DNA from: a virus
Taxonomy: Duplodnaviria; Caudoviricetes
Reading direction: 5' to 3' (one strand)
Length of the DNA: 59,425 nucleotides
Virus record (IMG/VR): IMGVR_UViG_3300049144_000150
Location: 1 to 59,425 of that record
Below, piece by piece: positions 12,053-36,945 of the stretch. The notes under the pieces were generated by a model, which ran no database searches, was not told where the DNA came from, and saw nothing but the letters and a program-made list of their open reading frames with translations. The translations under genes and the position numbers were made by a program. The first letter of the stretch is position 1. Each line of letters begins with the position of its first letter.

Positions 12053-12311
12053 GAGTTCACGGCCAAGTAGCGGAATTGCCGCTATAGTTCTTTCACCTTC
12101 CCGTCGTCGGAGGGTGACGGAGACCCCCTGTTGCAGGCGTAATGCCACCCAGCCCGGTGAGCCTGCATCAGGGGGTTTTCGGATTTCCCCTTATGCTGAA
12201 TACGCGCAGCGCAGACGGCCGTTCTTCCGAGGGGACGGCTGTCTGCGCTTTTCGCGATCTACAGCCCGCTCATCAGCAACTACGCTGATCCCATTGGGAG
12301 AGGGGGCTCGA

Positions 12312-15300: not shown

Positions 15301-18300
15301 GGTCCAACGGGTTCATGTTCGGCAACAGCGCCAACAGCCAGCTCATCGGCTGCCGGGCCGAATGGAACGGCAATCACGGCTTCTACCTGACCGGGGACTG
15401 GGGCCTGGGTGCCGGAGCCGGAGGGGCGCTGCTGTCCGGCTGCTCGACCGACCGCAACGGCTACAACGGCGTCTTCATCGACGTGGTGGGCACCAACGCC
15501 CCGCTCGTCATCTCCGGCCTGATGACCCGCCGGGACGGGCGCAACGGCGGAGCGGGCGGCGGGGGCTACGCAGGCGTGGCCGCCCTCAACAGTTCCATGC
15601 CCCTCATCATCGGCGACTGGACGAACTTCCCCGGCACCGACGATGACGGCACCCAGGCCAACAGTCCCGAGTTCGGCGGCTCGTTCGACAACTGCGACCA
15701 CGTCCAGATCGACAACGCCTACCTCCACGCGGACGTGAAGGGCCTGAACGACGCTGGAAACAACCGGGCCCTCCGGCTCGGCTCGGCCATCACCTACGGC
15801 GTCGGCACCACCGAGACGCTGGTGCGCACCCCGGCTCACAGCAACCAGATAACCGTCGCCGCCTCCGACTCCCGGACGAAGAAGGGCGCCGACTACGTCT
15901 GCACCGGGGTCGACGACCACCTCGTGATCCAGCAGGCCATCGACCTGGTCAACGCGGCTCCCGGCAAGGGCACCGTGAGGCTGCTGGACGGCACGTTCAA
16001 CCTGGGCGCCACCCTCTCCGTCCCGCCCGGCGCCGGACTAAGGATCGTCGGTTCAGGGTGGGGCACCGTCCTGAAGAACGCCCCCGCCAGCAACATCTAC
16101 GCGATCACCTTCGCCGGACCGGGGGAGACTCGGGCGCACTTCGCCGACCTCACCGTGGACGGCAACCTGACCGCCCAGACGGCAGGCGGCGGTATCTGGG
16201 CACCCGGCGCAGTCGAGTGCGTCTTCCAGAACCTGCACGTCACCGCCTGCTACGACACCGGCCTCTACCTGGGGCCCCAGGCCGACAACGCGTTCGGGCA
16301 CAACAACCACGTCAGCCAGTGCCTGTTCGACAATGCCATGGCCAGCCCCGGAGCGGGGCGCGGTATCCGCACCCAGAGCAACGACGAGAATTTCATCGTC
16401 GCCTGCGACTTCCAGTTCCTCGGAGGGGCCACCGCACAGGCTGCGGGCGTCTACGACCAGGCCGGAACCCAGACCATCCTGGGGTGCAACTTCGTGGGCG
16501 GAGGCAACAGCATGCCCGCCGTCCGCGTGCAGGACGCCGCCGCCACCAAGATCATGGGCTGCAACTTCGACGGAGTCGGCGGAGACGCGGTGTTCCTGGC
16601 TGCCAGCAACTGCGTGGTCCAGGGAAACATCATCTTCGGGGTAGGGGTGATCGGCACCGCAGGCGCCTACACCGGCATCCACCTGGAGTACGCGGCCACC
16701 AACAACCTCGTCTCCGGGAACTCCATCGCCTCGGCCGACGCCAACGGTGCAGCCCACTCCCTGATCCGCGAGGAGTCGGTCGGCGACTCGGGCAACAACA
16801 GCATCATCGGCAACGTCCTCATCACCAAGGGCACGATGACGGTCGGCCCCCTCGACCTCAACGCGCCGGGCACGCTGGTCCGCGCCAACAGGGGTGGTGG
16901 CGTGCTGGGCGACCCGCCCCCTCCGATTCGCGAGTTCGCCGGTCCGGTCTCCGACGCCAGCTTCCCCGCCAACCGGCCCCCGGCCAACGGCACCCTCGGC
17001 ATCGACTCCGCCAACCGGCGCCTGTACGCCCGCATCGGCGGAACCTGGAGCTACCAGTCCTTCGCCGCTACCGCTCGCGCACTGCCCGGGGCCCGTTTCG
17101 TGGCCGCCTCCAACGCCCCGGCGGCCGACAAGCAGGTGGCCGACTACGTCTGCGACGGCACGGCCGACAACGTCGAGATTCAGGCTGCCATCGACGCCGC
17201 ACAGGCGGAGGGCGGCGGCGTCGTCATCCTCTCGGCAGGCAACTTCAACCTGGCGGCCACCCTCGTCATCAACGGAACCACCAACGAGGACGACGCGAAG
17301 ACCGTCACCCTGCTCGGCCAGGGCCAGCAGGTCACTGAGCTGACCGTGGCCTCCGGCGTCACGGGCATCACGATCTCGAACTGGGCCCAGGTCAACCTCG
17401 ACTCGTTCTGCCTGTTCATCTCGGGTGCAGGCATCGGCATCAAGTCGGTCGGCGTCACCTCCGGCAACACGATGAGCTTCTGGCACTCCAGCTTCAGGAA
17501 CCTGCGCATCAACGGCGGGTTCGTCGCGACCTCCACCACGTGGGGCATGGAACTGGACGTTCCGTGGCGTTCGGTCTTCGAGAACATCGAGATCGAGGGG
17601 TGCAGGAACGGCATAAAGATCATCAACAATTCCACGGTACAGAACGCCGGAGACTGTGTCTTCAGCCGCTTCTTCGTGGAGATCGTGGGCAACGACGGGT
17701 ACGCCCTGTACTTCGACTCCATCGACGGCAACATGAACCAGAACATCTGGGACATGTTCGAAGCTGGGGCGAACGGGTCGGGCTGCACCGGCATCTACCT
17801 CGGCGGCGCCGTCGGCACGGCAAGTCAGCGGTTCTACGGCCTCAACCTGGAACAGTTCCAGACGCTCATCAACGTGGCCAACGGCGAGAGCAACGAGTTC
17901 TACTGCAACTACGTCACTGCCGACAGCGGCCAGGCCGGGAACAAGGCGTTCGTCTGCGGCTCGAACTCCTACAACAACCTCTTCCAGGCCAAGTGGGTCA
18001 ACGTCGAGACCAACGGAACGCTCCAGGTCATCGAAGATCTGAACACCACATCGGCCGCTCCGAACATCTTCGAGCGGATCCGGATCGAGAACAACAACGG
18101 CGGAACCGTCACCTACACCAAATCCTCCTCGACGGTGATCCGGGACATCGTCTCCTTCAATACCGGCAACCCGCTTCCGGCAGGTCTGCTCCAGTACCCG
18201 CTCAGCACGGTCAACGACCCGACCTTCACCCCGTCCGACCACGGACTGGTCACCTGGACCACCGAGCCTTCGTCGCTGGGTTCGACCAACACCCTGGCCA

Positions 18301-18743
18301 CAGGCACGGTCTACCTGTGCAAGGTCAAGATCGTCAACCGGTCGACGGTGGTCTCCAACATCCTCATGGGCATCACGAACACCCCGACCAACCTCACCGC
18401 AGGACAGAACGTGGCCGGGCTGTACAACAGCAGCGGCACCCTTCTGGCCCAGACCGCCGACCAGACCTCCAACTGGCTCTCGGCGGGCCTGAAGACGATG
18501 CCTCTGACCGCGCCGGTCACGCTGGCCGTGGGCACCTACTACGTGGCCTTCCTCTCCAACGGCACCGGAACACAGCCCAGCATCTTCTCGGCGGGCGGCT
18601 TCTCCAGCGCGGTGAATGCGGGGCTCAGCACGGGCCAGGCCCGCTTCCTCAACACAGCGGCGGGCAACACGGCCCTTCCCGCCACCATCACCCTGTCCGC
18701 ACAGAGCACCAACATCGCCTCCCGCTGGGCGGCGCTCAACTAA
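12312..18743 (+). CDS. Very large tail-fibre/tail-spike-like protein: collagen linker plus three parallel beta-helix (pectate-lyase-like) modules
   Basis: Actinophage-tail-like N-terminus; GPKGDPGQQGEPGPQG; three DG..DD/DN..IQ.AI-type module starts followed by N/G-rich beta-helix repeats. Confidence 0.75.
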   Translation: MPLPTERTVTGKYVNPVTGEPYDGTNGQNYVIFEPVPDRWTDQTGNQILLGGGRVNLAADGTFAEDVVCTDVDGVLPEDGRLWRLRQYIGGTWAEAQYIKVPMGEGPLDISDLLSVDLCGVEYVPVPGPKGDPGQQGEPGPQGKPGLDGGLDTGITSGGDLTPNASNPLAVDISPLTGRIVDYSTDPVTVTPVEVAATTTVELDSIAQTRAVTWLLMGSDGSVFQQEARPSPEDRRNFLALGVVVQDGGSIVLAQSIPTLIEQPVNQFYDFLDAIGAFNMSGNTISPNGANLMLDHSSGQVFSRGWNHFDGVAKTKNPHIVTTVGASPAPWVHVLRDSPLTPSTATTTVDVGHYDADGVLAPAVGGAVVHQLWIFPTSDGAEIHVLQYGQQVFDSLAEAIDGAAVTPITPNPALPGNAVLLAYLAVTPDATDLSDPTQAQVVAASRFGGGSSAGGGGGDVSGYARLSGAEFTGPIGTRMDAAEDIAQYSRTTTDTQDRFRRLSDGTQQWGDGSAPPDAELRRLAAGLLGFLGTDLLVGQADAKAYRMSQSGEVLDFEGAGADLILSVYELANFASTQHAYLRLESATRLAHALGKWIFSDTPLGAAVHTLDGEANQLGFHGATPVGQQTVTGDRSTGDALYSLLQALDAVGLISDTSTPGTPPVRTVNGEEGPDVTLDAANIGAIPAEEKGAADGVATLDAASKLPLGQVPDLPASQISSGTFASARIPDLSSKYLTVDRRGAVFGVAPLSGTGMVPFNFVDSLPASKINAGVFDRARIPDLSGTYLTPAQASTLYSTKDSLVFNAKEHGALADGTTDDQPVIQGLLNSSPAGSTVILPPGTYGTNAPIVVPPGKTLRGMRTNLMGVVGLYDPQVCIKPLSTFTGVAAIRFLDQAEGGYTAISGEQRVLDLMLDGVNVTAGADGIQAKGNIQNVALRDVTIARFPNSGIYCGLGGDNIAPYSWRMHRVMLDNNHTHGMYGDRMVDLTAVDCQAIGNWSNGFMFGNSANSQLIGCRAEWNGNHGFYLTGDWGLGAGAGGALLSGCSTDRNGYNGVFIDVVGTNAPLVISGLMTRRDGRNGGAGGGGYAGVAALNSSMPLIIGDWTNFPGTDDDGTQANSPEFGGSFDNCDHVQIDNAYLHADVKGLNDAGNNRALRLGSAITYGVGTTETLVRTPAHSNQITVAASDSRTKKGADYVCTGVDDHLVIQQAIDLVNAAPGKGTVRLLDGTFNLGATLSVPPGAGLRIVGSGWGTVLKNAPASNIYAITFAGPGETRAHFADLTVDGNLTAQTAGGGIWAPGAVECVFQNLHVTACYDTGLYLGPQADNAFGHNNHVSQCLFDNAMASPGAGRGIRTQSNDENFIVACDFQFLGGATAQAAGVYDQAGTQTILGCNFVGGGNSMPAVRVQDAAATKIMGCNFDGVGGDAVFLAASNCVVQGNIIFGVGVIGTAGAYTGIHLEYAATNNLVSGNSIASADANGAAHSLIREESVGDSGNNSIIGNVLITKGTMTVGPLDLNAPGTLVRANRGGGVLGDPPPPIREFAGPVSDASFPANRPPANGTLGIDSANRRLYARIGGTWSYQSFAATARALPGARFVAASNAPAADKQVADYVCDGTADNVEIQAAIDAAQAEGGGVVILSAGNFNLAATLVINGTTNEDDAKTVTLLGQGQQVTELTVASGVTGITISNWAQVNLDSFCLFISGAGIGIKSVGVTSGNTMSFWHSSFRNLRINGGFVATSTTWGMELDVPWRSVFENIEIEGCRNGIKIINNSTVQNAGDCVFSRFFVEIVGNDGYALYFDSIDGNMNQNIWDMFEAGANGSGCTGIYLGGAVGTASQRFYGLNLEQFQTLINVANGESNEFYCNYVTADSGQAGNKAFVCGSNSYNNLFQAKWVNVETNGTLQVIEDLNTTSAAPNIFERIRIENNNGGTVTYTKSSSTVIRDIVSFNTGNPLPAGLLQYPLSTVNDPTFTPSDHGLVTWTTEPSSLGSTNTLATGTVYLCKVKIVNRSTVVSNILMGITNTPTNLTAGQNVAGLYNSSGTLLAQTADQTSNWLSAGLKTMPLTAPVTLAVGTYYVAFLSNGTGTQPSIFSAGGFSSAVNAGLSTGQARFLNTAAGNTALPATITLSAQSTNIASRWAALN

Positions 18744-24514: not shown

Positions 24515-25113
24515 ACGTGTGGCATCACAACCTCGGTGTCGCCGATCCGGGTGAGAAGCATCGGATCTATCCGACCCGGGCGCTCTTCACCGGCACGGGG
24601 GAGCTGGCTGACGTCGCCGACTTCACGCAGGCCCAGCATATCGAGGCCGTCGCCGTTCACGAACTGGGGCACTTCCTCGTGAACTGGAAACTGGGCGCCT
24701 ACATGCGGTCGTTCAGCATCCGCGATGCCCCGTCGAACGTCATCCCGGACGCCGAGGTCTGCTTCAGCTACCCGGACACCGTTGACGCCCGTCGGATCCT
24801 GGTGGGCGGTGCGGCCGGTGAGCGGGCCTGCGACCGGTGGCTCCGCGAGGAAGGTCTGTGGACTCCGGCGCGGGCCGTGTACGCCGAGGTGCAGGGCCAG
24901 ACCGACCGTCAGGACGCGCTGGCCGAGGATCCGTCCATCACGTTCGACGGGGGGCCGAACGACTACAGCCTCCTCCAGGATGAGGCGGACGGGCTCCTGG
25001 ACGAGATGTGGCCGCTGCTGCGACGCGGCCTGCCCGGCTTCTGTGACTTCGTACGGCTGACCGGGGATGCGGCGTGCAGCATGCTGGGGATCAGGAACAA
25101 CCCTGCGGTCTGA
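24511..25113 (+). CDS. Stand-alone HEXXH metallopeptidase-like (FtsH/M41-like) domain
   Basis: VAVHELGHFLV followed by AGERA and a downstream D. Confidence 0.7.
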   Translation: MNVWHHNLGVADPGEKHRIYPTRALFTGTGELADVADFTQAQHIEAVAVHELGHFLVNWKLGAYMRSFSIRDAPSNVIPDAEVCFSYPDTVDARRILVGGAAGERACDRWLREEGLWTPARAVYAEVQGQTDRQDALAEDPSITFDGGPNDYSLLQDEADGLLDEMWPLLRRGLPGFCDFVRLTGDAACSMLGIRNNPAV

Positions 25114-25122
25114 CCGTGCCAC

Positions 25123-25152
25123 TTGACCTAGGCCACTCGGGGGCCGTAAAGT
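25123..25152 (+). promoter_or_regulatory. Sigma70/HrdB-type promoter of the tRNA/ncRNA cluster with overlapping operator variant
   Basis: TTGACC-18 bp-TAAAGT; GACCTAGGCC at 25125-25134 overlaps the -35. Confidence 0.7.
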
Positions 25153-25264
25153 AATAACCAGTTCAGGCGATTCCATCGCAGGAACTACTGCACCGAGGTT
25201 GATGCAACCTTCCTCGGCGTATGAGTCGATGCCGGAAGGACTTCTCACCCCTCCGGCTCGGCGG

Positions 25265-25338
25265 TGGCAGGTAGCTCAGTCGGTTAGAGCGCGCCTCTGA
25301 TAAGGGCGAGGTCGAAGGTTCGATCCCTTCTCTGCCAA
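25265..25338 (+). tRNA. tRNA-Ile(GAT), no encoded CCA
   Basis: Acceptor TGGCAGG/TCTGCCA; D arm GCTC/GAGC; anticodon arm CGCCT-CTGATAA-GGGCG; T arm GAAGG-TTCGATC-CCTTC; discriminator A. Confidence 0.9.
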
Positions 25339-25526
25339 CTGGACCGGAAGTCGCGGATGTCAGGCACGGCACGGATTTCCGGTCCGCCCTTCAGCACCCG
25401 CCCACACCTGGCACAGTCGGTGTGGGCGGGTGTCCAAAAGCCACAGAGGAGTTCGCGATCAGGCGCGCGGGGTTTGGGCACCCCGTTTCGCGAATTCCGC
25501 CAAGTCCCCCATGGCAGGCGGGGGCA

Positions 25527-25597
25527 GCCCGTGTTGTGTAATCGGCAGCACGCCATCTGGAGGGGTGGAGGTGCGGGTTCAAAGCCCGCCACGGGCT
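25527..25597 (+). ncRNA. tRNA-like RNA with non-canonical 6-nt anticodon loop
   Basis: Perfect acceptor GCCCGTG/CACGGGC, D arm GTGT/GCAC, T arm GCGGG-TTCAAAG-CCCGC; CCATC/GGTGG stem closes TGGAGG. Confidence 0.75.
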
Positions 25598-25687
25598 CTT
25601 GGGCAGGGGTGGAAGAAGAGTCCATTGATCCGCGTAGAAATCATGACCCCTGTAAGCGGATCTGGGTCAGCGTTGATTGCGCTGACA

Positions 25688-25807
25688 GCGCACGTATCCA
25701 AGCGGCCGAAGGAGGTCTGCTGAATCCGCCCCAGCGGAGGAGGCAGGCAGGTCCGGGAAACTGGGTGGTTCTCGGTGCCTCGCGGGTTCGAATCCTGTCC
25801 GTGCGCA
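25688..25807 (+). ncRNA. Expanded tRNA-like RNA (120 nt) with a hairpin inserted in the anticodon loop and a long variable arm
   Basis: Acceptor GCGCACG/CGTGCGC; D arm TCC-AAGCGGCCGAA-GGA; GTCTG/CAGGC stem encloses 24 nt; GGTTCGAATCC T loop. Confidence 0.7.
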
Positions 25808-25935
25808 CGCAAAAGGAAAGGAGATGGAAACGGTGAGTGACTTCATCGCGATCGAGGACGGTCACACCTTCCTCTCCCGGGAAGAGCTGGACGAGTACCG
25901 CACTCAGAAGGTTCAGATGGCATCCGAGGAGGGTG

Positions 25936-26085
25936 ATGGCTGAGCAGCACAAGCCGTGCAACGGCACCGGAGAGACGCAGACCGTGAACGCGGCCACGGG
26001 CGACGTGCAGAGCAACACCTGCCAGCCCTGCGGCGGCAACGGTACGGTGGCTTCTCCGCAGCACGGCGGCAGCAACAGGGGCTGA
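25936..26085 (+). CDS. Mini DnaJ-type zinc-finger peptide (49 aa)
   Basis: GAGGAGG RBS; HKPCNGTG...CQPCGGNG. Confidence 0.6.
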   Translation: MAEQHKPCNGTGETQTVNAATGDVQSNTCQPCGGNGTVASPQHGGSNRG

Positions 26086-26149
26086 ACGCCCTGCACTTGG
26101 GGGCCCTGCGGGGCCCCTTTGCCGTACTTCGAAAAGGAGACAAGTCGAC

Positions 26150-26626
26150 ATGTCGGCGGCAGTACTGTTCTACGGGTACAACCTGGGTGCTCCGGAGGAC
26201 TCCGGCTGGGCGCTCAAGGTGGACACCCCTGACTTCAGGGCCGACACCGACTTCGAGCCCGAGTGGCTGACCGAAGCCGAGGCGGCCGATGAAGACCTCG
26301 TCGAAGCGATGCGCCGGGCCATCCTGATCGCGTCCGGTGTTCCTGAGAGTGAAGCCGTGGTGAACCGAGTCCCCGGACTCAGTCTCGACGACCTCCTGGC
26401 CAAGCGCTGCGGTGTCCGGCTGCTCACCTGCGGCCACTCCAACTCCCCCTTCTACGGCCTCGCCCTGGCCGACACCGTCCACCAGGCCGACGACTGGACC
26501 CCCAAGTGCATCGCCCCCACGGCGCGGTGCGCGAACCATGAGCCGCTGGACAAGGCCCTGGAGGCGCTGGACATGAAGCCCGCTCAGCGCCACCCCTCCT
26601 GGATCCTGGCGCCGGAAGAGTTCTAA
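26150..26626 (+). CDS. Hypothetical protein
   Basis: AAAGGAG RBS, high GC3. Confidence 0.7.
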   Translation: MSAAVLFYGYNLGAPEDSGWALKVDTPDFRADTDFEPEWLTEAEAADEDLVEAMRRAILIASGVPESEAVVNRVPGLSLDDLLAKRCGVRLLTCGHSNSPFYGLALADTVHQADDWTPKCIAPTARCANHEPLDKALEALDMKPAQRHPSWILAPEEF

Positions 26627-26632
26627 ATAAGG

Positions 26633-26662
26633 TTGCGATCCCGTCGCAGGATCCCGTAGTCT
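26633..26662 (+). promoter_or_regulatory. Promoter for the Y RNA array
   Basis: TTGCGA-18 bp-TAGTCT; predicted +1 near 26669-26671, where Y RNA 1 begins. Confidence 0.65.
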
Positions 26663-26670
26663 TTTTCTTA

Positions 26671-26746
26671 GCACCCGGTGTGAAGGCAACGGTTACTTCT
26701 TCTGCAAAAGGAACCCAAACCGTAGCCGCTTCGGTTAACCGGGGGC
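26671..26746 (+). ncRNA. Y RNA 1, minimal form (Ro-binding stem, no tRNA-like domain)
   Basis: CCCGGTGTGA...CGGTTACTTC...GGTTAACCGGG motifs shared with the two following RNAs; adjacent to Ro60. Confidence 0.75.
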
Positions 26747-26753
26747 GTCAACT

Positions 26754-26919
26754 TCACAGTGGTTCTGGAGTCGTTCGGTGTGATAGTGACGGTTACTTCA
26801 CCTCTGGAGTGAGTAGTCCGGTTCAAATCCGGCGACGGCGAAAGCCCGGTAGTGTAACGGCAGCACGCTAACGTTCCCGTTGCGACTTGGTTAACCGGAC
26901 GGCCCCAGAATCACTGTGA
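26754..26919 (+). ncRNA. Y RNA 2, YrlA-like with a permuted tRNA mimic (CTG anticodon-like loop)
   Basis: About 26-bp terminal stem; GGTGTGA/TTAACC; TTCAC-CTCTGGA-GTGAG; CCGG-TTCAAAT-CCGG; GAAA-capped acceptor; TA-GTGT-AACGGCA-GCAC D arm placed after the T arm. Confidence 0.85.
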
Positions 26920-26921
26920 TG

Positions 26922-27093
26922 ATGTACGCAGACAAACCGGCTGGTGTGTAAGCATCAGTTACTTCCGGTAATCTCTAGGTCGTTGGTTCGAATCCAATCC
27001 GGTGCCGAAAAGCTCCGGTAGCTCAGTTGGCAGAGCAAGAGACAAAATGTCACTGATGCGATTTGGTTAACCAGCCGGTCTGCCTGCGTACAT
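26922..27093 (+). ncRNA. Y RNA 3, YrlA-like with a permuted tRNA mimic opened in the anticodon loop
   Basis: ATGTACGCAG/CTGCGTACAT and ACCGGCTGGT/ACCAGCCGGT stems; GGTAA-TCTCT-AGGTC-GTTGG-TTCGAAT-CCAAT; CCGGTGC-CGAAAA-GCTCCGG; TA-GCTC-AGTTGGCA-GAGC-A-AGAGA. Confidence 0.88.
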
Positions 27094-27098
27094 AAGAT

Positions 27099-27129
27099 GC
27101 CCCCTCCGCCCGGAGGGGGCTTTCTTTTT
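27099..27129 (+). terminator. Intrinsic terminator between the Y RNAs and the ligase gene
   Basis: GCCCCCTCCG/CGGAGGGGGC stem followed by TTTCTTTTT. Confidence 0.8.
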
Positions 27130-27150
27130 GATCGGAAACGGAGAAAGAAC

Positions 27151-27909
27151 GTGACGACGTTGGCGATGACAGATCTTCGGATCCTGAACAGCGCGACGAA
27201 GTACCCGGAGATCCTGACCTACCACGCACTCGGCGAACGCGGTCGCCTCACCGACAGCCTGACGGCGACGTTCGACGGCCCCACGCTTCTCTTCGAGAAG
27301 GTCGACGGAACCAACATCCGGGTCATCAAGGACGGAACCGGCGACTGGATCATCGGCAGTCGCGAGGATCTGCTGACCGCCAAGGGAGACCGGGTGGCCA
27401 ACAAGTTCGAAGGCGTCGTCGAAGCGCTGGGTGACCTGCCGGACCGTCTGCCCGACCCCTTCAACCAGGCTCGCGTGTACTACATGGAGGTCTACGGCGG
27501 CCGGATCACTGGCAACGCGAAGAACTACTCGAAGTCCGGAGCGACGGGCTTCCGCATCTTCGACGTGGCGACCGTGCCGCTGAACCTCTTCACCCACTGG
27601 ACCCTCGACCAGGTGTCCGGCTGGCGCAAGCGGGGGGGCCAGGAGTGGTTCCCCTGGGACCAGGTCCAGGCGCTCGTCGGAGGGCTCGACGGCATCGAAA
27701 CAGTCCCCGAGCTGGGCCGGTGCGACGCCACCGAACTGCCGACCGAGCATCAGACCACGCTCGACTGGCTGGAGCGCAAAGCCCCGAAGACGCGCTGCGG
27801 CCTGACCGAACAGGGCCCGGCCGAAGGCATCGTGCTGCGGTCGCCCGACCGCTCGCAGATCGCCAAGGCCCGCTTCCAGGACTACCGCCGCACCCTCGGC
27901 ATCAAGTGA
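27151..27909 (+). CDS. ATP-dependent RNA ligase, Rnl2-like nucleotidyltransferase domain
   Basis: Motif I FEKVDGTN, III YMEVYG, IIIa FRIFDV, IV AEGIVLR, V IAKAR; no OB-fold tail as in DNA ligases; GGAG RBS, GTG 27151. Confidence 0.85.
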   Translation: MTTLAMTDLRILNSATKYPEILTYHALGERGRLTDSLTATFDGPTLLFEKVDGTNIRVIKDGTGDWIIGSREDLLTAKGDRVANKFEGVVEALGDLPDRLPDPFNQARVYYMEVYGGRITGNAKNYSKSGATGFRIFDVATVPLNLFTHWTLDQVSGWRKRGGQEWFPWDQVQALVGGLDGIETVPELGRCDATELPTEHQTTLDWLERKAPKTRCGLTEQGPAEGIVLRSPDRSQIAKARFQDYRRTLGIK

Positions 27910-27953: not shown

Positions 27954-29552
27954 ATGGCCCGCTTCAACACCAAGACGACCCAGCCGAAGGCGAAGGCCCC
28001 GGTCACCGGCACCTCTGTGAACCACGAGGGCGGCACGGGCTACACCCTCCCGGAGAAGGGCGAACTGTTCAACCTCGCCACCGTCAACTTCGTCGGCCAG
28101 GACACCTTCTACGAGAAGGGCAACGCCCGCGACGCCCGCTACAACGGACTCGTCGAGAGCATCGCGGTCGCCGACTGGCCGTGGCTGCACGGCATGCTGC
28201 CGTGGCTGCGCTCCGACGCCAACATCCGCACCGCCTCCCTCACGGGCGCCGCGCACGCCGTGCACCGCCGTCTGGAGGCCGGTCAGTACGACGACAACGC
28301 TGCGCTGGTCGACTCCGTCATCCAGCGCGCTGACGAGGTCGGCGAGTTCGCCGCGTACTGGCTCGCCACCTTCGGCGGCGTCATGCCGAAGCCGGTCAAG
28401 AAGGGCCTGGCGATGGCGATGCGCCGTCTGTACACGGCCCGCAACGTCCTGAAGTGGGACTCGGGGGCGCGCGGCATGCGCTTCGCCGACGTCATCAACC
28501 TGGTTCACCCGAAGCCGCGCGACTCCGAGCAGGAGGCGCTGTGGAAGTACCTGCTCGACGAGCGCGGCCACAAGGACGGCGACGTCAACACGGTGCCGAT
28601 GATCGCCACCCGCAAGCGGTGGTACGACGAGTTCTCCGACGAGCAGAAGCTGGCCTCGCTCCGCGACGGCTCGGCGTTCCGCGACTTCGGTCTCACGTGG
28701 GAGAACGCGTCGTCCGAGCTGAAGGGCCGGGTCGGCGAGAAGGTGCTGTGGGAGGCGATGGCTCCGCACCTGCCGTACATGGCCGCCATCCGCAACCTGC
28801 GCAACATGGACGAAGCGGGCATCTCGTACGCCACGGCCAACAAGCTGGCGGCGCGGATCGCGGACCCGGCGGAGGTGGCCAAGTCCCGGCAGCTCCCGTA
28901 CCGGTTCCTGTCCGCCTACCTGGCGGCGCCGAGCGACCGCTGGAAGGGTGCACTGGAGGAGGCCATCAACCTCTCCCTGAAGTCCGTTCCGGAGCTGCCG
29001 GGGCGCACGCTGGTTCTGGTCGACACCTCGGCGTCGATGAACGGCATGGGCTTCTCGGCGAAGTCGAAGGTCACCCCGGCCATGGCGGCGGCGATCTTCG
29101 GGTCCATCCTGGCCCAGCGGAACCCGGGCCGGGTCGAGCTGTACGGTTTCGCCAACGGCGTGTTCAAGCACGACGTCAAGGCGGGCCAGGGCGTCCTGTC
29201 GGCGGCTCAGAGCTTCGTCCGCCGCATCGGCGAGGTCGGCCACGGCACCGAGATGACCGCGTCCGTCCGCCGGGCGTTCGCCGGTCACGACCGCGTGTTC
29301 ATGATCAGCGACATGCAGTGCTTCGCGGACTCCGCCGGTCGCGGCTTCGGCGACGGAGGGTACGGCAGCAACCCGGTTCCGGTGCCGGACGGCACGAAGG
29401 TGTACGGCGTCAACCTCGGCGGCTACGCCAAGACGGCGATCGACAGCCGAATCAAGAACCGGTTCGAGTTCTCCGGGCTGACCGACCAGGTCTTCCAGCA
29501 GATCCTCGCGCTGGAGGCCGGGTTCGCCGAGAAGTGGCCGTGGGTCGCGTAA
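27954..29552 (+). CDS. rsr: Ro60/Rsr (TROVE plus vWA) Y-RNA-binding protein
   Basis: VNHEGG.GY, DTFYE, NIRT, DVINLVHPKP, TWE, YMAAIRNLRNM, SRQLPYRFLSAY; vWA VDTSASM and ISDMQ. Confidence 0.95.
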   Translation: MARFNTKTTQPKAKAPVTGTSVNHEGGTGYTLPEKGELFNLATVNFVGQDTFYEKGNARDARYNGLVESIAVADWPWLHGMLPWLRSDANIRTASLTGAAHAVHRRLEAGQYDDNAALVDSVIQRADEVGEFAAYWLATFGGVMPKPVKKGLAMAMRRLYTARNVLKWDSGARGMRFADVINLVHPKPRDSEQEALWKYLLDERGHKDGDVNTVPMIATRKRWYDEFSDEQKLASLRDGSAFRDFGLTWENASSELKGRVGEKVLWEAMAPHLPYMAAIRNLRNMDEAGISYATANKLAARIADPAEVAKSRQLPYRFLSAYLAAPSDRWKGALEEAINLSLKSVPELPGRTLVLVDTSASMNGMGFSAKSKVTPAMAAAIFGSILAQRNPGRVELYGFANGVFKHDVKAGQGVLSAAQSFVRRIGEVGHGTEMTASVRRAFAGHDRVFMISDMQCFADSAGRGFGDGGYGSNPVPVPDGTKVYGVNLGGYAKTAIDSRIKNRFEFSGLTDQVFQQILALEAGFAEKWPWVA

Positions 29553-29867: not shown

Positions 29868-30145
29868 AGGCCGTCAGTGGGCACTGGTTCCGGGCGGACT
29901 ATAGCGACGAGCCGTGCCGCTTCCCCGATTGCGGGCGCCCGCAGGATGAGCACGTGGAGTCCTGCGGCGAATGGATGGATCCCCGGCACGCCTTCCGCCC
30001 CACCCTGTCCAGCCGGAATGGCTTCCGCTGCTCCCGCTGCGGGCGTCGCTGGGGGCACTCGACACACTTCGGAAGCCGGAAGAACCGGTCCTTGTGGTGG
30101 GACCGATGGAACGGCTTCTGGGACACGGTGAGGAGAAGGAAATGA
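29864..30145 (+). CDS. Small Cys/His-rich (Zn-binding) protein
   Basis: C...CGR...H and C..CGR...H motifs; translational coupling. Confidence 0.55.
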   Translation: MKAVSGHWFRADYSDEPCRFPDCGRPQDEHVESCGEWMDPRHAFRPTLSSRNGFRCSRCGRRWGHSTHFGSRKNRSLWWDRWNGFWDTVRRRK

Positions 30146-30525
30146 AGAACCGGACCATTCAGCTCGGCGGCGAGACCTTGAAGCCCGGCGACACCGTGGT
30201 GGTGTTCACGGCTAGCGGCGGCAGGTCGGAGCGGCCCATCACGAGGATCGGCACCAAGCGGATCTACCTCGACGGCTATGGCAGCGAGGTCGCCTTCGAG
30301 ATCGACACCCGCAAGGAGGTCGGATACGTCGCCGGGTACATCCCGCACTTCAAGACCCACAAGGAAGTGGCCGCGATGGACCGGCGCCGGGATCTGGTGC
30401 TCAAGCTCCGCGAGTTCGGCCTTCAGCCCGTGGACGGCGCACTTGGCGACCTTGGGCAGCACTCGGACGAAGCCCTGGAGGACGTCCTTGCGGTGCTGTT
30501 GAAACACCGCAACACCAAGAACTGA
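30142..30525 (+). CDS. Hypothetical small beta-barrel-like protein
   Basis: AGGAG RBS; LKPGDTVVV..ITRIGTKRIYL. Confidence 0.65.
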   Translation: MKNRTIQLGGETLKPGDTVVVFTASGGRSERPITRIGTKRIYLDGYGSEVAFEIDTRKEVGYVAGYIPHFKTHKEVAAMDRRRDLVLKLREFGLQPVDGALGDLGQHSDEALEDVLAVLLKHRNTKN

Positions 30526-34950: not shown

Positions 34951-35259
34951 GTGAACGACCTGAGTGCTCTCGCGGCCCGGTTCCTGGATGTCCTGGCGGA
35001 AGCCCAGAAGGAACGTCCGCAGCGAGACGGCCTGATCGAAAGGGCCGACGGTTACCCCGAGCTGGAGTGGGCCGCCTACGAACGAGGCGTCATGCAAGCG
35101 GAGGTGAACCGGGTCCGGGCGAAGGGCGGGCGTGAGCCGATCCCGCTGGCGCTGGTCGAGCGGGTGGAGAGCCAGGCGGCCGGTCACTCGGACTACTCCT
35201 ACAAGTTCGCCCTGTACTGCGCCGAGCTGGCTCTCGGTGTGTCACGACAGACGTACTGA
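34951..35259 (+). CDS. Hypothetical protein (A.GHSDY..KFALYCAEL motif)
   Basis: GAAAGGAG RBS, GTG 34951. Confidence 0.65.
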   Translation: MNDLSALAARFLDVLAEAQKERPQRDGLIERADGYPELEWAAYERGVMQAEVNRVRAKGGREPIPLALVERVESQAAGHSDYSYKFALYCAELALGVSRQTY

Positions 35260-35278
35260 CGGAAAGGGAAGGAGCGGC

Positions 35279-35929
35279 ATGAAGATCTACGAGGTTCTTC
35301 TGCGGGTCGAGGCGGACAGTGACGTCACGGCCACGCGCATCCGTGATGAGATCTACGACGCGTGCGGCGACGTGCCGTTCGGGTTCGACGTCGAGACGGT
35401 CGACCCGAAGATGGTCTCCCTCGCGGAGGTCGACCGGTTCGCGGAGCGGGCGCACATGGGCCAGTTCGACAAGGGTGGCGTGCCCTACGTCGAACACGTG
35501 CGAGCCGTGGCTGCCGGGCTGGAGCCGTTCAGCACCCGGCTCCAGATGGCGGGCCTGCTGCACGACGTGATCGAGGACACCGAGTGGACCGCCGAGACTC
35601 TGCGGGCGGCGGGCGTCGAGAGCCGGGTCGTGCGGATCGTCGAGCTGGTCACCAAGGAGCAGAGCGAGTCCTACATGGACCGCATCCGCAAGATCTCCCA
35701 GGATCGCGAAGCGACGCTCGTGAAGATCGCGGACAACGCGCACAACAGCCGCGCGGACCGGGCGGCAGCACTGCCCGACGGCAACCGCAGCCGCCTGGAG
35801 CGGTACCGCAAGGCCCGCGAGATCCTGTGGGCCGCCGTGAAGCCGGAGGAGGTCGAGGAGATCATCTCGATCGTCAACCCGGACCTCCTGGCCGAGTACC
35901 GCCAGTACCTTCCGGGGTGGAACTGGTGA
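35279..35929 (+). CDS. Mesh1/SpoT-type HD hydrolase (small alarmone hydrolase-like)
   Basis: HMGQFDKGGVPYVEH, AGLLHDVIEDT and VKIADNAHN motifs. Confidence 0.88.
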   Translation: MKIYEVLLRVEADSDVTATRIRDEIYDACGDVPFGFDVETVDPKMVSLAEVDRFAERAHMGQFDKGGVPYVEHVRAVAAGLEPFSTRLQMAGLLHDVIEDTEWTAETLRAAGVESRVVRIVELVTKEQSESYMDRIRKISQDREATLVKIADNAHNSRADRAAALPDGNRSRLERYRKAREILWAAVKPEEVEEIISIVNPDLLAEYRQYLPGWNW

Positions 35930-36165: not shown

Positions 36166-36945
36166 GTGATGGGTGACAACACCGCACTCGGTGACCGCAT
36201 GAAGAGCTACGAAGCCGTCCAGAGGACCGTCCTGCCGCGCCGGACGTATACGCTGATGCGTCTCGACGGCAGGGCCTTCCACACCTACCTGCGGGGCGCC
36301 GACAAGCCCTTCGATATGCAGTTCATCAAAGACATGGCCGCCGTCGCCGAGGCTCTGTGCGCGGAGATCAGCGGCGCCGTGTTCGCCTACACCCAGTCGG
36401 ACGAGATCAGCCTGCTGGTCACGGACTTCGCGTCGCCCCAAACCCAGCCCTGGTTCGGCGGGGTCACGGCCAAGATGCTCTCCGTCTCCGCATCGCTGGC
36501 CACGGCCGTACTCAACGAGCGGCGCCCGGGAAGACGTGCGCTGTTCGACGCCCGGGTCTTCACCCTGTCCGACCCGGTGGAGGTGGCCAACTACTTCCTG
36601 TGGCGACAACGCGACGCGGTCAGGAACTCCATCTCGATGGCGGCCCAGGCGCACTTCTCGCACAAGCGGCTGAAGGGCGTCGACAGCGACGGCATGCAGG
36701 AACTTCTGTGGTCCGAGGCGGGCGTCAACTGGAGCGAGTACCCCGCAGAGTGCAAGCGGGGCAACGTCTCGGTCCGCAAGGTGGGCGAGCGTCCGGTGGA
36801 GTACTTCGACAAGCGCATCCAGGAGACGGTGCAGACCGTGGCCACCCGTTCGTGGTGGGAGACGACTCCCGCGCCGCACTTCACGCTGAACGCGGACGGC
36901 TGGCTGACTGAGGTGATCCCGCCCCTTCCCCGCCTCGGGGAATGA
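36166..36945 (+). CDS. tRNA(His) guanylyltransferase Thg1-like protein (3'-5' polymerase)
   Basis: RMKSYE, RLDGRAFH, YTQSDEISL, FDARV and YFLWRQRDAVRNSI motifs. Confidence 0.95.
   Translation: MMGDNTALGDRMKSYEAVQRTVLPRRTYTLMRLDGRAFHTYLRGADKPFDMQFIKDMAAVAEALCAEISGAVFAYTQSDEISLLVTDFASPQTQPWFGGVTAKMLSVSASLATAVLNERRPGRRALFDARVFTLSDPVEVANYFLWRQRDAVRNSISMAAQAHFSHKRLKGVDSDGMQELLWSEAGVNWSEYPAECKRGNVSVRKVGERPVEYFDKRIQETVQTVATRSWWETTPAPHFTLNADGWLTEVIPPLPRLGE

What the first reader, a model, noticed from the sequence alone, without database searches (positions are those of the whole stretch)
25688..25807. tRNA-like RNA with a 17-nt hairpin insertion after a GAA anticodon and a branched variable arm
Seen: intact acceptor, D and T elements, but the anticodon stem encloses 24 nt (CT-GAA followed by a TCCGC-CCCA-GCGGA hairpin). 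The 33-nt variable region includes a TCCGG-GAAA-CTGGG hairpin, and there is one extra C before the acceptor 3' strand. The paired insertions suggest selection on structure rather than decay. The insert is near the canonical 37/38 intron position of archaeal and eukaryotic tRNAs. Inference: either a ligase-dependent spliced tRNA or a non-decoding mimic or decoy.
Basis: partly seen in the sequence, partly recalled or inferred. Interest (0 to 1): 0.72.

Follow-up and report, generated by a model that had tools for sequence, protein, structure and literature searches.

The report
Phage tRNA look-alike that cannot decode
A small clade of large Streptomyces phages carries a conserved 120-base RNA that keeps the acceptor, D and T parts of a transfer RNA but has a closed, rigid arm where the anticodon loop should be, so it is most likely a tRNA mimic rather than a working or spliced tRNA.

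Summary
The feature at 25688-25807 is real. ARAGORN and Rfam do not call it. A covariance model built from four copies finds 13 distinct versions, all on Streptomyces-phage-like contigs, at 117-137 bits. The best match in 141 Actinomycetes genomes scores 50.6 bits and is an ordinary tRNA-Ser.

Covariation supports six helices: 95.5% of cells are paired against 38-48% for slid controls, and 23 of 39 pairs change on both sides. The core is a type-II tRNA core.

The "GAA anticodon" is the invariant 5' side of a 3x3 purine internal loop, inside a 15-layer arm closed by an NCCA tetraloop. The variable arm is one 12-bp stem with a CUGGN loop, not branched. The extra C occurs only in the window.

The two apical loops are complementary, but the covariation for that pairing is weak.

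The element shares a strand and a likely transcription unit with a YrlA-like RNA. RNA ligase and Ro60 genes follow.

Splicing is unlikely. The insert is conserved, excision would leave a self-pairing loop, Satis has a normal tRNA-Phe, and 0 of 5 genomes encode a splicing endonuclease.

Best reading: a non-decoding tRNA mimic. Its function is untested.

The parts
25123..25152 (+). Sigma-70-like promoter candidate (TTGACC, 18-nt spacer, TAAAGT) upstream of the RNA cluster
   Evidence: the only promoter-like site in 24900-27200 (shuffles give a mean of 0.3). Similar hexamers sit at the same place in L006 and L007. This is a consensus match only.
25265..25339 (+). Canonical tRNA-Ile(GAU), first module of the cluster
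   Evidence: ARAGORN; Rfam tRNA at 65.8 bits.
25527..25598 (+). Second tRNA-like module (TL2) with a 6-nt 'anticodon' loop
   Evidence: ARAGORN gives tRNA-???; Rfam tRNA at 44.9 bits. In relatives the same module has loops of 3, 6, 7, 8 or 19 nt, by my reading.
25606..25662 (+). Conserved H-type pseudoknot candidate in the linker. S1 is 25606-25610 with 25646-25650; S2 is 25627-25633 with 25656-25662.
   Evidence: 97.0% of cells paired against 32.6-52.8% when slid, and 5 of 12 pairs change on both sides, across 11 distinct sequences (MAFFT alignment A4).
25666..25686 (+). Hairpin ending 1 nt before the element's first base
   Evidence: Read. A hairpin of differing sequence occupies this place in all 12 aligned loci. 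It was not counted formally because the MAFFT register shifts by one column between rows.
25688..25807 (+). The tRNA-like element (TL3), whole
   Evidence: Model R1 scores 118.5 bits here and 117-137 bits in 12 other distinct homologues. Not called by ARAGORN or Rfam.
25715..25748 (+). Closed 'anticodon' arm: 7-bp outer stem (25715-25721 / 25742-25748), 3x3 purine loop (GAA 25722-24 / GGA 25739-41), 5-bp inner stem, CCCA tetraloop (25730-25733)
   Evidence: In the outer stem 4 of 7 pairs are invariant. In the inner stem 4 of 5 pairs change on both sides. GAA is invariant in 13 of 13; the opposite side reads GGA, GGG, AGG or AGA.
25749..25780 (+). Variable arm: a single long stem with a purine-rich mismatch about 6 pairs from its base, and an apical loop starting CUGG (25761-25764)
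   Evidence: 10 of 12 pairs change on both sides. Columns 67/88 are unpaired in 11 of 13 sequences. CUGG is invariant in 13 of 13.
25782..25798 (+). T arm with canonical T loop
   Evidence: 3 of 5 pairs change on both sides. The loop is conserved in 12 of 13 sequences; L068 has one change.
25824..25943 (+). First small ORF (39 aa), 16 nt after the element and preceded by a purine-rich ribosome-binding stretch
   Evidence: A homologous ORF follows TL2 directly in L007, which lacks the element.
26952..27062 (+). YrlA-like (Y RNA-like) candidate, below Rfam's threshold
   Evidence: RF02553 at 41.7 bits (gathering score 69), E 5e-7 to 7e-8, covering the full model. Sub-threshold matches occur in 5 of 5 element-bearing genomes, but the same search also gave sub-threshold matches in 6 of 14 control genomes.
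27099..27128 (+). Intrinsic-terminator-like hairpin plus T run, closing the putative unit that starts at the promoter
   Evidence: It overlaps the first codons of the ORF listed from 27097, so the true ligase start may lie further downstream.
27097..27909 (+). RNA ligase (PF09414 family)
   Evidence: E 9.5e-17; phrog_548, RNA ligase.
27954..29552 (+). Ro60-like TROVE-domain RNA-binding protein
   Evidence: PF05731, E 5.8e-16; phrog_850, E 1.3e-41; weak match to Rsr.

Best explanation
TL3 is a non-decoding, tRNA-shaped noncoding RNA derived from a type-II (Tyr/Ser-like) tRNA. It is kept by a clade of roughly 185-200-kb Streptomyces phages.

Proposed mechanism:
1. It is transcribed from the conserved promoter at 25123-25152 as part of a unit of about 2 kb: tRNA-Ile, TL2, pseudoknot, TL3, small ORFs, YrlA-like RNA, terminator. 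This step is inferred.
2. Its intact acceptor/T/D core folds into the tRNA L-shape. It is therefore handled by tRNA enzymes (RNase P, 3' trimming, CCA addition) and is stable. This is inferred; M. smegmatis YrlA is the precedent.
3. In place of an anticodon loop it has a 15-layer closed arm with an invariant purine internal loop and an NCCA tetraloop. Beside it stands a 12-bp variable arm with a UGGN loop. The architecture is shown.
4. The two apical loops pair with each other, within one molecule or between two. This makes a rigid lower body that cannot enter the decoding site and offers no anticodon loop to cut. This step is inferred.
5. It acts through its shape, as a pseudo-substrate, decoy or adaptor for a tRNA-binding protein, in the conflict over tRNA integrity that the neighbouring RNA ligase, Ro60 and YrlA-like RNA also serve. 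This step is inferred and is the least certain.
For: Family and structure:
- 13 distinct sequences score 117-137 bits.
- 95.5% of cells are paired against 38-48% when slid. 23 of 39 pairs change on both sides. All six helices hold.
- The tRNA core letters are invariant in the four-sequence alignment: U8, A14, G15 with the C before the T stem, the GG of the D loop, and the T loop.

No decoding loop:
- GAA lies in a 3x3 loop flanked by invariant C-G and U.G pairs. The arm is closed by a 5-bp stem and a tetraloop in 13 of 13 sequences.
- The neighbouring module TL2 has 'anticodon' loops of 3 to 19 nt in different phages. The locus therefore makes tRNA shapes that are not decoders.

Apical loops:
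- 89.7% of cells pair over six positions against 20-59% when slid. The one variable inner position reads C-G in 7 sequences, U-A in 1 and A-U in 1.

Context:
- Same strand, with one promoter-like site upstream and one terminator-like site after the YrlA-like RNA.
- RNA ligase and TROVE genes follow.
- TROVE is present in 5 of 5 element-bearing genomes.
- Passages of PMC4201824 report that Y RNAs lie within 4 kb of Ro60 on the same strand, and that M. smegmatis YrlA is cut by RNase P and receives CCA.
- Passages of PMC7824862 describe jumbo-phage RNA ligase, TROVE, Thg1 and CCA-adding enzymes as repair of tRNAs cut by host RNases.

Distribution:
- 0 of 32 bacterial loci holding the pattern are members.
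- 0 of 141 Actinomycetes genomes score above 50.6 bits. Seven of those genomes are unpublished.
Against: - No expression, end-mapping, modification or binding data exist. Processing, stability and any partner are all inferred.
- The Ro60 motif GNCGAAN0-1G is not conserved in the element. It occurs only in the window's D loop, by my reading.
- TROVE also occurs in two related complete genomes that lack the element, so the link to Ro60 is one of position only.
- Covariation for the loop-loop pairing is weak. 4 of 6 pairs never vary, the inner variable pair is mismatched in 4 of 13 sequences, and only 1 pair changes on both sides. A tetraloop is also a poor kissing partner unless its closing pair opens.
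- A hairpin ends 1 nt before the 5' end and could hinder RNase P. If so, TL3 may stay part of a larger RNA.
- The 13 sequences come from one narrow clade, so some of the counted changes are inherited together.
- The alignment was fitted to the model.
- The single-sequence fold is not exceptional.
Confidence: 0.55

Rival explanations
1. Processing and stability signal. The tRNA shape serves only as punctuation. RNase P and 3' processing at TL2 and TL3 cut the long transcript, releasing and protecting the downstream mRNA, which starts 16 nt after TL3. The RNA has no function of its own.
For: TL3 sits directly before the first ORF's ribosome-binding stretch. TL2's 'anticodon' loop is free to vary, as expected if only the acceptor/T/D part matters. 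The ORF is kept without TL3 in L007, so TL3 is dispensable.
Against: A punctuation mark needs neither a 15-layer arm with an invariant internal loop and tetraloop, nor a 12-bp variable arm with an invariant CUGG loop. Both are maintained by compensatory changes. The hairpin abutting the 5' end is not what an efficient RNase P site looks like.
Confidence: 0.15
2. A second Y RNA. TL3 binds the phage Ro60 protein, as YrlB does beside YrlA, and gates or targets it.
For: It lies 2.15 kb upstream of the TROVE gene on the same strand. That is within the 4-kb window in which Y RNAs were found (PMC4201824, section 5). That paper's discussion says Ro60-bound RNAs escaped bioinformatic discovery. TROVE is present in 5 of 5 element-bearing genomes.
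Against: There is no Rfam YrlA or Y_RNA match on the element even at E up to 10. The topology is opposite to YrlA: the ends are at the acceptor stem and the anticodon-side helix is closed. The Ro60 motif is not conserved. A better YrlA candidate sits next to the TROVE gene. TROVE occurs without the element in G142 and G143.
Confidence: 0.12
3. One module of a larger ornate RNA. The roughly 0.5-kb stretch (spacer, TL2, pseudoknot, hairpin, TL3) works as one multi-domain RNA. The complementary NCCA and UGGN loops pair between molecules to build dimers or larger assemblies, or they capture the NCCA 3' ends of tRNAs.
For: The whole interval from tRNA-Ile to TL3 is conserved and structured. The linker pseudoknot covaries. 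Hairpins abut the 5' ends of TL2 and TL3 with a 1-2-nt spacer, whereas tRNA-Ile has 8 nt. The loops are complementary to each other but not to themselves.
Against: No Rfam large-RNA family matches 25000-26200 at E up to 10. No data exist on transcript ends. TL3 can be absent while TL2 and the linker remain.
Confidence: 0.08
4. Intron-containing pre-tRNA. The 17 nt after GAA are removed by an endonuclease and the halves are joined by the phage RNA ligase, giving a type-II-bodied tRNA with anticodon GAA.
For: The insert sits at or next to the canonical 37/38 position. C-U-G-A-A and discriminator A are invariant. An RNA ligase gene lies 1.3 kb downstream. Other tRNA-like genes in related phages carry structured inserts at the same place: L137 has 61 nt and TL2 of JustBecause has 12 nt.
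Against: The insert has fixed length and conserved letters. There is no bulge-helix-bulge. The loop left after excision would pair C with G and U with G. The 12-bp variable arm with its conserved loop has no counterpart in the decoding tRNAs I know (recalled, not checked against a database). Satis has its own tRNA-Phe(gaa). 0 of 5 genomes encode PF01974. The ligase also occurs in a relative that lacks the element.
Confidence: 0.05
5. Decaying tRNA pseudogene with chance insertions.
For: tRNA finders do not call it. The single-sequence fold has z = -1.24.
Against: Compensatory changes occur in every helix, including both 'insertions'. Core tRNA letters are invariant. It is present at the same site in 13 diverged sequences.
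Confidence: 0.02

Closest known systems
YrlA / bacterial Y RNAs (Rfam RF02553; Chen et al. 2014, PMC4201824, passages and section 5 read)
   Same: A noncoding RNA that mimics the acceptor, T and D parts of tRNA and has a long helix where the anticodon stem would be. It is encoded on the same strand within 4 kb of a Ro60/TROVE gene, in phages as well. M. smegmatis YrlA is cut by RNase P and receives CCA.
   Different: The topology is permuted. In YrlA the ends lie in the anticodon-side helix and the acceptor stem is closed by a loop. In TL3 the ends are at the acceptor stem and the anticodon-side helix is closed. TL3 has no conserved GNCGAAN0-1G motif and no Rfam match. The phage has a separate YrlA-like candidate.
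Type-II bacterial tRNAs (Tyr, Ser, Leu)
   Same: 7/5 acceptor/T geometry, a 3-bp D stem with a long D loop, and an arm between the anticodon and T stems. The best cellular matches of the model are tRNA-Ser(gga/cga), Tyr and Leu. The D arm and T arm are nearly letter-identical to actinomycete tRNA-Ser and tRNA-Tyr.
   Different: There is no 7-nt anticodon loop. The variable arm has 12 pairs, against 3-7 in ordinary type-II tRNAs (that range is recalled). Cellular tRNAs score at most 50.6 bits against 117-137 for the family.
Intron-containing tRNAs of archaea and eukaryotes (bulge-helix-bulge, 37/38)
   Same: Extra nucleotides immediately 3' of an anticodon-like triplet, with the triplet held in a paired or structured context.
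   Different: There is no bulge-helix-bulge. The insert is conserved in length and sequence. No splicing endonuclease domain is found in 5 of 5 phage genomes. The excised product would not have a usable loop.
Viral tRNA-like structures and tRNA-like stable RNAs: plant-virus 3' TLS with an upstream pseudoknot domain, gammaherpesvirus-68 tRNA-like RNAs, phage T4 species 1 and 2 RNAs. All are recalled from general knowledge; none was checked in a call.
   Same: Virus-encoded RNAs that copy the tRNA top half in order to use host tRNA enzymes without decoding. The TLS is preceded by a pseudoknot, as here.
   Different: Hosts, sequences and architectures differ. To my knowledge none has a closed 15-layer anticodon arm paired with a 12-bp variable arm.
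ROOL and GOLLD large phage-associated RNAs (recalled; Rfam holds models)
   Same: Ornate structured RNAs in phages, often next to tRNA genes, whose loops mediate RNA-RNA contacts.
   Different: No Rfam match to any such family in 25000-26200 at E up to 10. The size and modules are different.

Membership tests
Canonical decoding tRNA (RF00005) | 7-bp acceptor stem, D and T arms with the conserved tertiary-interaction letters | tested here: met
   Acceptor, D and T helices are 100% paired. U8, A14, G15, the GG of the D loop, the C before the T stem and the T loop are conserved.
Canonical decoding tRNA (RF00005) | 5-bp anticodon stem closing a 7-nt loop with U33 and a purine at 37 | tested here: not met
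   The stem encloses 24 nt, which form 2 more pairs, a 3x3 loop, a 5-bp stem and a tetraloop in 13 of 13 sequences.
Canonical decoding tRNA (RF00005) | Recognised by tRNA finders or the Rfam model | tested here: not met
   ARAGORN makes no call. Rfam gives no match at the gathering score or at E up to 10.
Protein-spliced intron-containing tRNA | Bulge-helix-bulge: two 3-nt bulges on opposite strands separated by a 4-bp helix | tested here: not met
   By inspection, the two 3-nt strands face each other directly as a symmetric internal loop, with no central helix.
Protein-spliced intron-containing tRNA | A splicing endonuclease is available | tested here: not met
   PF01974 is found in 0 of 5 element-bearing phage genomes, while the control finds it in 4 archaea. 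Host genomes were not searched. An unrelated nuclease cannot be excluded.
Protein-spliced intron-containing tRNA | A spliced form exists | not testable with these tools
   No RNA data (see Tried and rejected).
Group I intron in a bacterial tRNA | A self-splicing intron of a few hundred nt with the P1-P9 fold | tested here: not met
   The insert is 17 nt. No intron family appears in Rfam scans.
YrlA / Y RNA | Match to RF02553 or RF00019 | tested here: not met
   No match on 25688-25807 at E up to 10. The window's match lies at 26952-27062.
YrlA / Y RNA | 5' and 3' ends pair to form the Ro60-binding stem, with the GNCGAAN0-1G motif near the 5' end | tested here: not met
   The ends are at the acceptor stem. 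The motif is present only in the window's D loop and not in the other 12 sequences, by my reading. The motif is taken from PMC4201824.
YrlA / Y RNA | Encoded within 4 kb of Ro60 on the same strand | tested here: met
   The element ends at 25807 and the TROVE ORF starts at 27954, both on +.
YrlA / Y RNA | Bound by Ro60 | not testable with these tools
   Needs immunoprecipitation.
tRNA-Sec / allo-tRNA (8/5, 9/4, 8/4, 9/3) | An acceptor branch of 12-13 bp with non-7/5 geometry | tested here: not met
   7 + 5 pairs in all 13 sequences. For the allo-tRNA paper PMC5389517 only the search listing and abstract were seen.
tmRNA | A tRNA-like domain plus a tag reading frame | tested here: not met
   ARAGORN reports no tmRNA in the window.

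The most novel reading that the evidence does not exclude
TL3 is a true pre-tRNA whose 17-nt insert is cut out by a still-unknown phage or host nuclease and sealed by the neighbouring phage RNA ligase. This would be the first protein-spliced, non-group-I tRNA intron in the bacterial and phage world. The inserts in TL2 of JustBecause and Frankenweenie and in L137 would be further examples.
Probability: 0.05. Interest if true: 0.9.

Novelty: new variant of a known kind. Interest (0 to 1): 0.6.

Why it matters
tRNA mimics are a recurring way for viruses to engage host machinery. In bacteria, Y RNAs tie tRNA mimicry to Ro60 and RNA repair.

TL3 is a well-supported new RNA family with a previously undescribed design: an intact tRNA top half joined to two long, knee-bearing arms with complementary tips. 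It is encoded in phages that also carry RNA ligase and Ro60 genes and a candidate YrlA-like RNA.

If it proves to be an uncuttable tRNA decoy or an adaptor for repair proteins, it would be a new RNA-based move in the phage-host conflict over tRNAs. It would also be a natural example of the 'tRNA scaffold' used in RNA engineering.

The carrier phages Satis, JustBecause and Frankenweenie are isolated and grow on laboratory Streptomyces, so the questions can be tested directly.

The family is narrow (13 sequences, one clade) and its function is unknown, which limits the claim.

Tried and rejected
- RNA evidence: no RNA holder listed for window:25100-26000.
- Plasmids: 208 records match the 701-nt query. 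The 30 rows listed cover only query positions 63-149, which is the tRNA-Ile. No record covers 80% of the query.
- Bacterial genomes: the 31-nt pattern hit 32 loci, and none is a family member. Most pattern matches in metagenome and viral contigs were chance: 58 of 69 loci had no R1 match of the element class.
- Ro60 motif and permuted-YrlA idea: rejected. The motif is not conserved. The nearest look-alike letters are on the strand that does not correspond to YrlA's motif-bearing strand.
- Thg1-like gene as a partner: the window has one, but 0 of 5 other element-bearing genomes do. It is not linked to the element.
- A recalled idea that the inner hairpin derives from the host tRNA-Phe anticodon stem. 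The two phage tRNA-Phe genes do not share that stem. A recalled degenerate tRNA-Phe motif found nothing in three large Actinomycetes genomes. Dropped as unverified.
- The linker's invariant UGG between pseudoknot and hairpin as the tetraloop's partner: its fourth letter does not follow the tetraloop's variable letter, whereas the variable-arm loop's does in 2 lineages.
- Literature: searches returned nothing describing this RNA. Supplements of PMC4201824 list the phage YrlA RNAs but could not be opened, so they may bear on the YrlA-like candidate.
- The search of earlier findings returned nothing.
- Searches (script syntax; search-term format; needs a G handle) were slips, corrected.

Full report
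**What the window is.**
G000 is a 59,425-base IMG/VR virus record, estimated at 31% complete. The region around the finding matches Streptomyces phages of 184-200 kb: Frankenweenie, JustBecause, Kela, Satis, Quantum, Kradal and EhyElimayoE. In those phages the order is FtsK-like translocase, tRNA-Ile, an odd 'tRNA-OTHER/His', the stretch in question, small ORFs, then RNA ligase and/or a Ro-like RNA-binding protein. The window has the same order.

**Checking the observation.**
ARAGORN and Rfam do not call the element, even at E up to 10. RNAfold gives a cloverleaf, but its energy is unremarkable: z = -1.24, and 28 of 200 shuffles fold at least as well. Reality therefore had to be tested by comparison.

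**The family.**
- The 120-nt query finds 7 of 50,697 phage records, all Streptomyces phages, at 72-77% identity.
- I built covariance model R1 from the window, Frankenweenie, JustBecause and Satis.
- Pattern scans gave the following. The first pattern hit 1 viral locus. The second hit 16 viral, 54 metagenome and 32 bacterial-genome loci. A third hit 8 viral loci.
- Screening with R1 found 11 of the 69 viral and metagenome loci to be members, one of them truncated. None of the 32 bacterial loci is a member. One of the 4 new loci from the third pattern is a member.
- In all there are 17 full-length loci holding 13 distinct sequences, at 117-137 bits. Some loci are the same contig held in two collections.
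- In 141 Actinomycetes genomes the best match is 50.6 bits. Seven of these genomes are unpublished and enter only this tally. The top matches are ordinary tRNA-Ser, Tyr and Leu.
- Two related complete phage genomes of 259 and 251 kb have no member. Their best scores are 36.7 and 35.2 bits. At the syntenic site of one of them, TL2 is followed directly by the same small ORF. The element is therefore clade-specific and dispensable.

**Structure.**
On the 13-sequence alignment, 95.5% of cells pair against 37.7-48.2% when partners are slid. 23 of 39 pairs change on both sides. No shuffle out of 500 reaches the observed pairing or covariation score. The alignment was fitted to the model, which leans towards the structure, and the sequences are close relatives.

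Per helix, pairs changing on both sides:

| Helix | Pairs changing on both sides | Note |
|---|---|---|
| Acceptor | 3 of 7 | |
| D stem | 2 of 3 | |
| Outer 'anticodon' stem | 1 of 7 | 4 pairs invariant |
| Inner hairpin | 4 of 5 | |
| Variable arm | 10 of 12 | |
| T stem | 3 of 5 | |

1. Two invariant pairs (C-G, U.G) extend the 5-bp stem. The invariant GAA therefore faces GGA, GGG, AGG or AGA in a 3x3 all-purine loop, and the arm is closed by a 5-bp stem and an NCCA tetraloop.
2. The variable region is one long arm. It has a purine-rich mismatch about six pairs up (unpaired in 11 of 13 sequences) and a 7-8-nt loop that always begins CUGG.
3. The extra C is unique to the window.

[quoted passage not shown] The origin is a type-II tRNA.

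**Apical loops.**
The tetraloop with its closing bases is complementary to the first six letters of the variable-arm loop. 89.7% of cells pair against 20-59% when slid, and 4 of 500 shuffles reach that level. However, four of the six pairs never vary. The variable inner pair reads C-G in 7 sequences, U-A in 1, A-U in 1, and is mismatched in 4. I treat a loop-loop contact, within one molecule or between two, as a hypothesis with suggestive but weak support. Both arms carry an internal loop at a similar height followed by about 5 pairs, which would allow the tips to approach each other. That geometric point is inference.

**Surroundings.**
- One promoter-like site lies at 25123-25152. It precedes tRNA-Ile and is conserved in L006 and L007.
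- The interval up to TL3 is conserved and structured.
- The second module, TL2 (25527-25598), keeps its acceptor, D and T arms, but its 'anticodon' loop is 3, 6, 7, 8 or 19 nt in different phages.
- The linker holds an H-type pseudoknot: 97% of cells paired against 33-53% when slid, and 5 of 12 pairs change on both sides.
- A hairpin ends 1 nt before TL3.
- Downstream come small ORFs, then a YrlA-like RNA at 26952-27062 (41.7 bits against a gathering score of 69).
- Next is a terminator-like hairpin at 27099-27128, followed by RNA ligase and the TROVE/Ro60 gene.
- TROVE is present in 5 of 5 other element-bearing genomes.
- Sub-threshold YrlA-like matches lie between the element and TROVE in the same 5 genomes. 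The same model also gives sub-threshold matches in 6 of 14 control genomes.

**Spliced tRNA or mimic?**
For splicing: the insert's position, the invariant C-U-G-A-A and discriminator A, and the nearby ligase.

Against splicing:
- The insert has fixed length and conserved letters.
- There is no bulge-helix-bulge.
- After removal of 17 nt, the first and last loop bases (C, G) and the next pair (U.G) would pair.
- The variable arm is unlike that of any decoding tRNA I know (recalled).
- Satis has a canonical tRNA-Phe(gaa).
- No PF01974 endonuclease is found in 5 of 5 genomes, while the control finds it in 4 archaea.
- TL2's freely varying loop shows that this locus produces non-decoding tRNA shapes.

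I put splicing at about 0.05.

**Most likely mechanism.**
TL3 is a stable tRNA mimic. Its top half engages tRNA enzymes. The published precedent is that M. smegmatis YrlA is cut by RNase P and receives CCA (PMC4201824, passages). Its closed lower body prevents decoding and cleavage in an anticodon loop.

It shares a strand and a likely transcription unit with the YrlA-like RNA, and sits beside the RNA ligase and Ro60 genes. A review of jumbo phages reads such genes as repair of tRNAs cut by host RNases (PMC7824862, passages). The most economical role is therefore a pseudo-substrate, decoy or adaptor for a tRNA-binding protein in that conflict.

The structure is shown. Processing, loop pairing and the decoy role are inferred.

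**Rivals.**
These are listed with odds in their own section: a bare processing or stability signal (0.15), a second Ro60-bound Y RNA (0.12), a module of a larger or oligomerising RNA (0.08), splicing (0.05) and a pseudogene (0.02).

**Novelty.**
None of my five literature searches returned a description of this RNA. In GenBank it is unannotated in Satis, Kradal, EhyElimayoE and Frankenweenie. It is overlapped by a 'hypothetical protein' in Quantum and Kela, and partly annotated as a 72-nt 'tRNA-Ser' in JustBecause. It is a new variant within the known kind 'tRNA-like noncoding RNAs'.

Noticed in passing
window 25527-25598; L002:1746-1831; L001:1729-1814; L003:1463-1532: A second tRNA-like module (TL2) keeps its acceptor, D and T arms, but its 'anticodon' loop is 6 nt in the window, 3 nt in Satis (annotated tRNA-His), 8 nt in L006, 7 nt without U33 in L007, and 19 nt with a small hairpin in JustBecause and Frankenweenie (annotated tRNA-OTHER). 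It looks like another non-decoding tRNA mimic.
   Followed up: partly
window 25606-25662: Conserved H-type pseudoknot between TL2 and TL3, with conserved loops. 97% of cells paired against 33-53% when slid, and 5 of 12 pairs change on both sides. No Rfam match.
   Followed up: partly
window 26952-27062: YrlA-like RNA directly upstream of the RNA ligase and Ro60 genes. It scores 41.7 bits, below Rfam's gathering score of 69, and covers the full model. It is followed by a terminator-like hairpin at 27099-27128 that overlaps the listed start of the ligase ORF.
   Followed up: partly
window 36166-36945: Thg1-like 3'-5' nucleotidyltransferase (PF04446, E 4.4e-23, plus the Thg1 C-terminal domain). 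It is absent from 5 of 5 other element-bearing phage genomes. Such genes are sporadic in jumbo phages according to PMC7824862.
   Followed up: partly
window 29971-30525 and 35132-35929: A phage ProQ C-terminal-like domain protein, and an HD_4 / RelA-SpoT-hydrolase-like protein. With the ligase and Ro60 these make an RNA- and nucleotide-metabolism neighbourhood.
   Followed up: no
L133:1501-1618, L134:1501-1620 (-), L137:1501-1627 (main tRNA clusters of the 259- and 251-kb relatives): Other oversized tRNA-like genes. Two are Tyr-like RNAs with a variable arm of about 49 nt and C instead of U at position 33. One tRNA-like gene has a 61-nt, three-hairpin insert in the anticodon loop. Aberrant tRNA shapes seem to be a recurring theme in these phages.
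   Followed up: partly
L002:1978-2049 (JustBecause gene 141): The deposited 'tRNA-Ser' annotation lies wholly inside the 118-nt element (1933-2050). It appears to read the variable-arm loop as an anticodon loop, so it is likely a mis-call.
   Followed up: partly
window 25937 onward: The second small ORF after the element overlaps the stop of the first and has Cys-x-x-Gly / Cys-x-x-Cys-Gly motifs, as seen in the L007 homologue. It is possibly a small zinc-ribbon protein.
   Followed up: no
window 12114-18743: A very long ORF (2209 aa, + strand) of unknown function. It was listed only, not searched.
   Followed up: no
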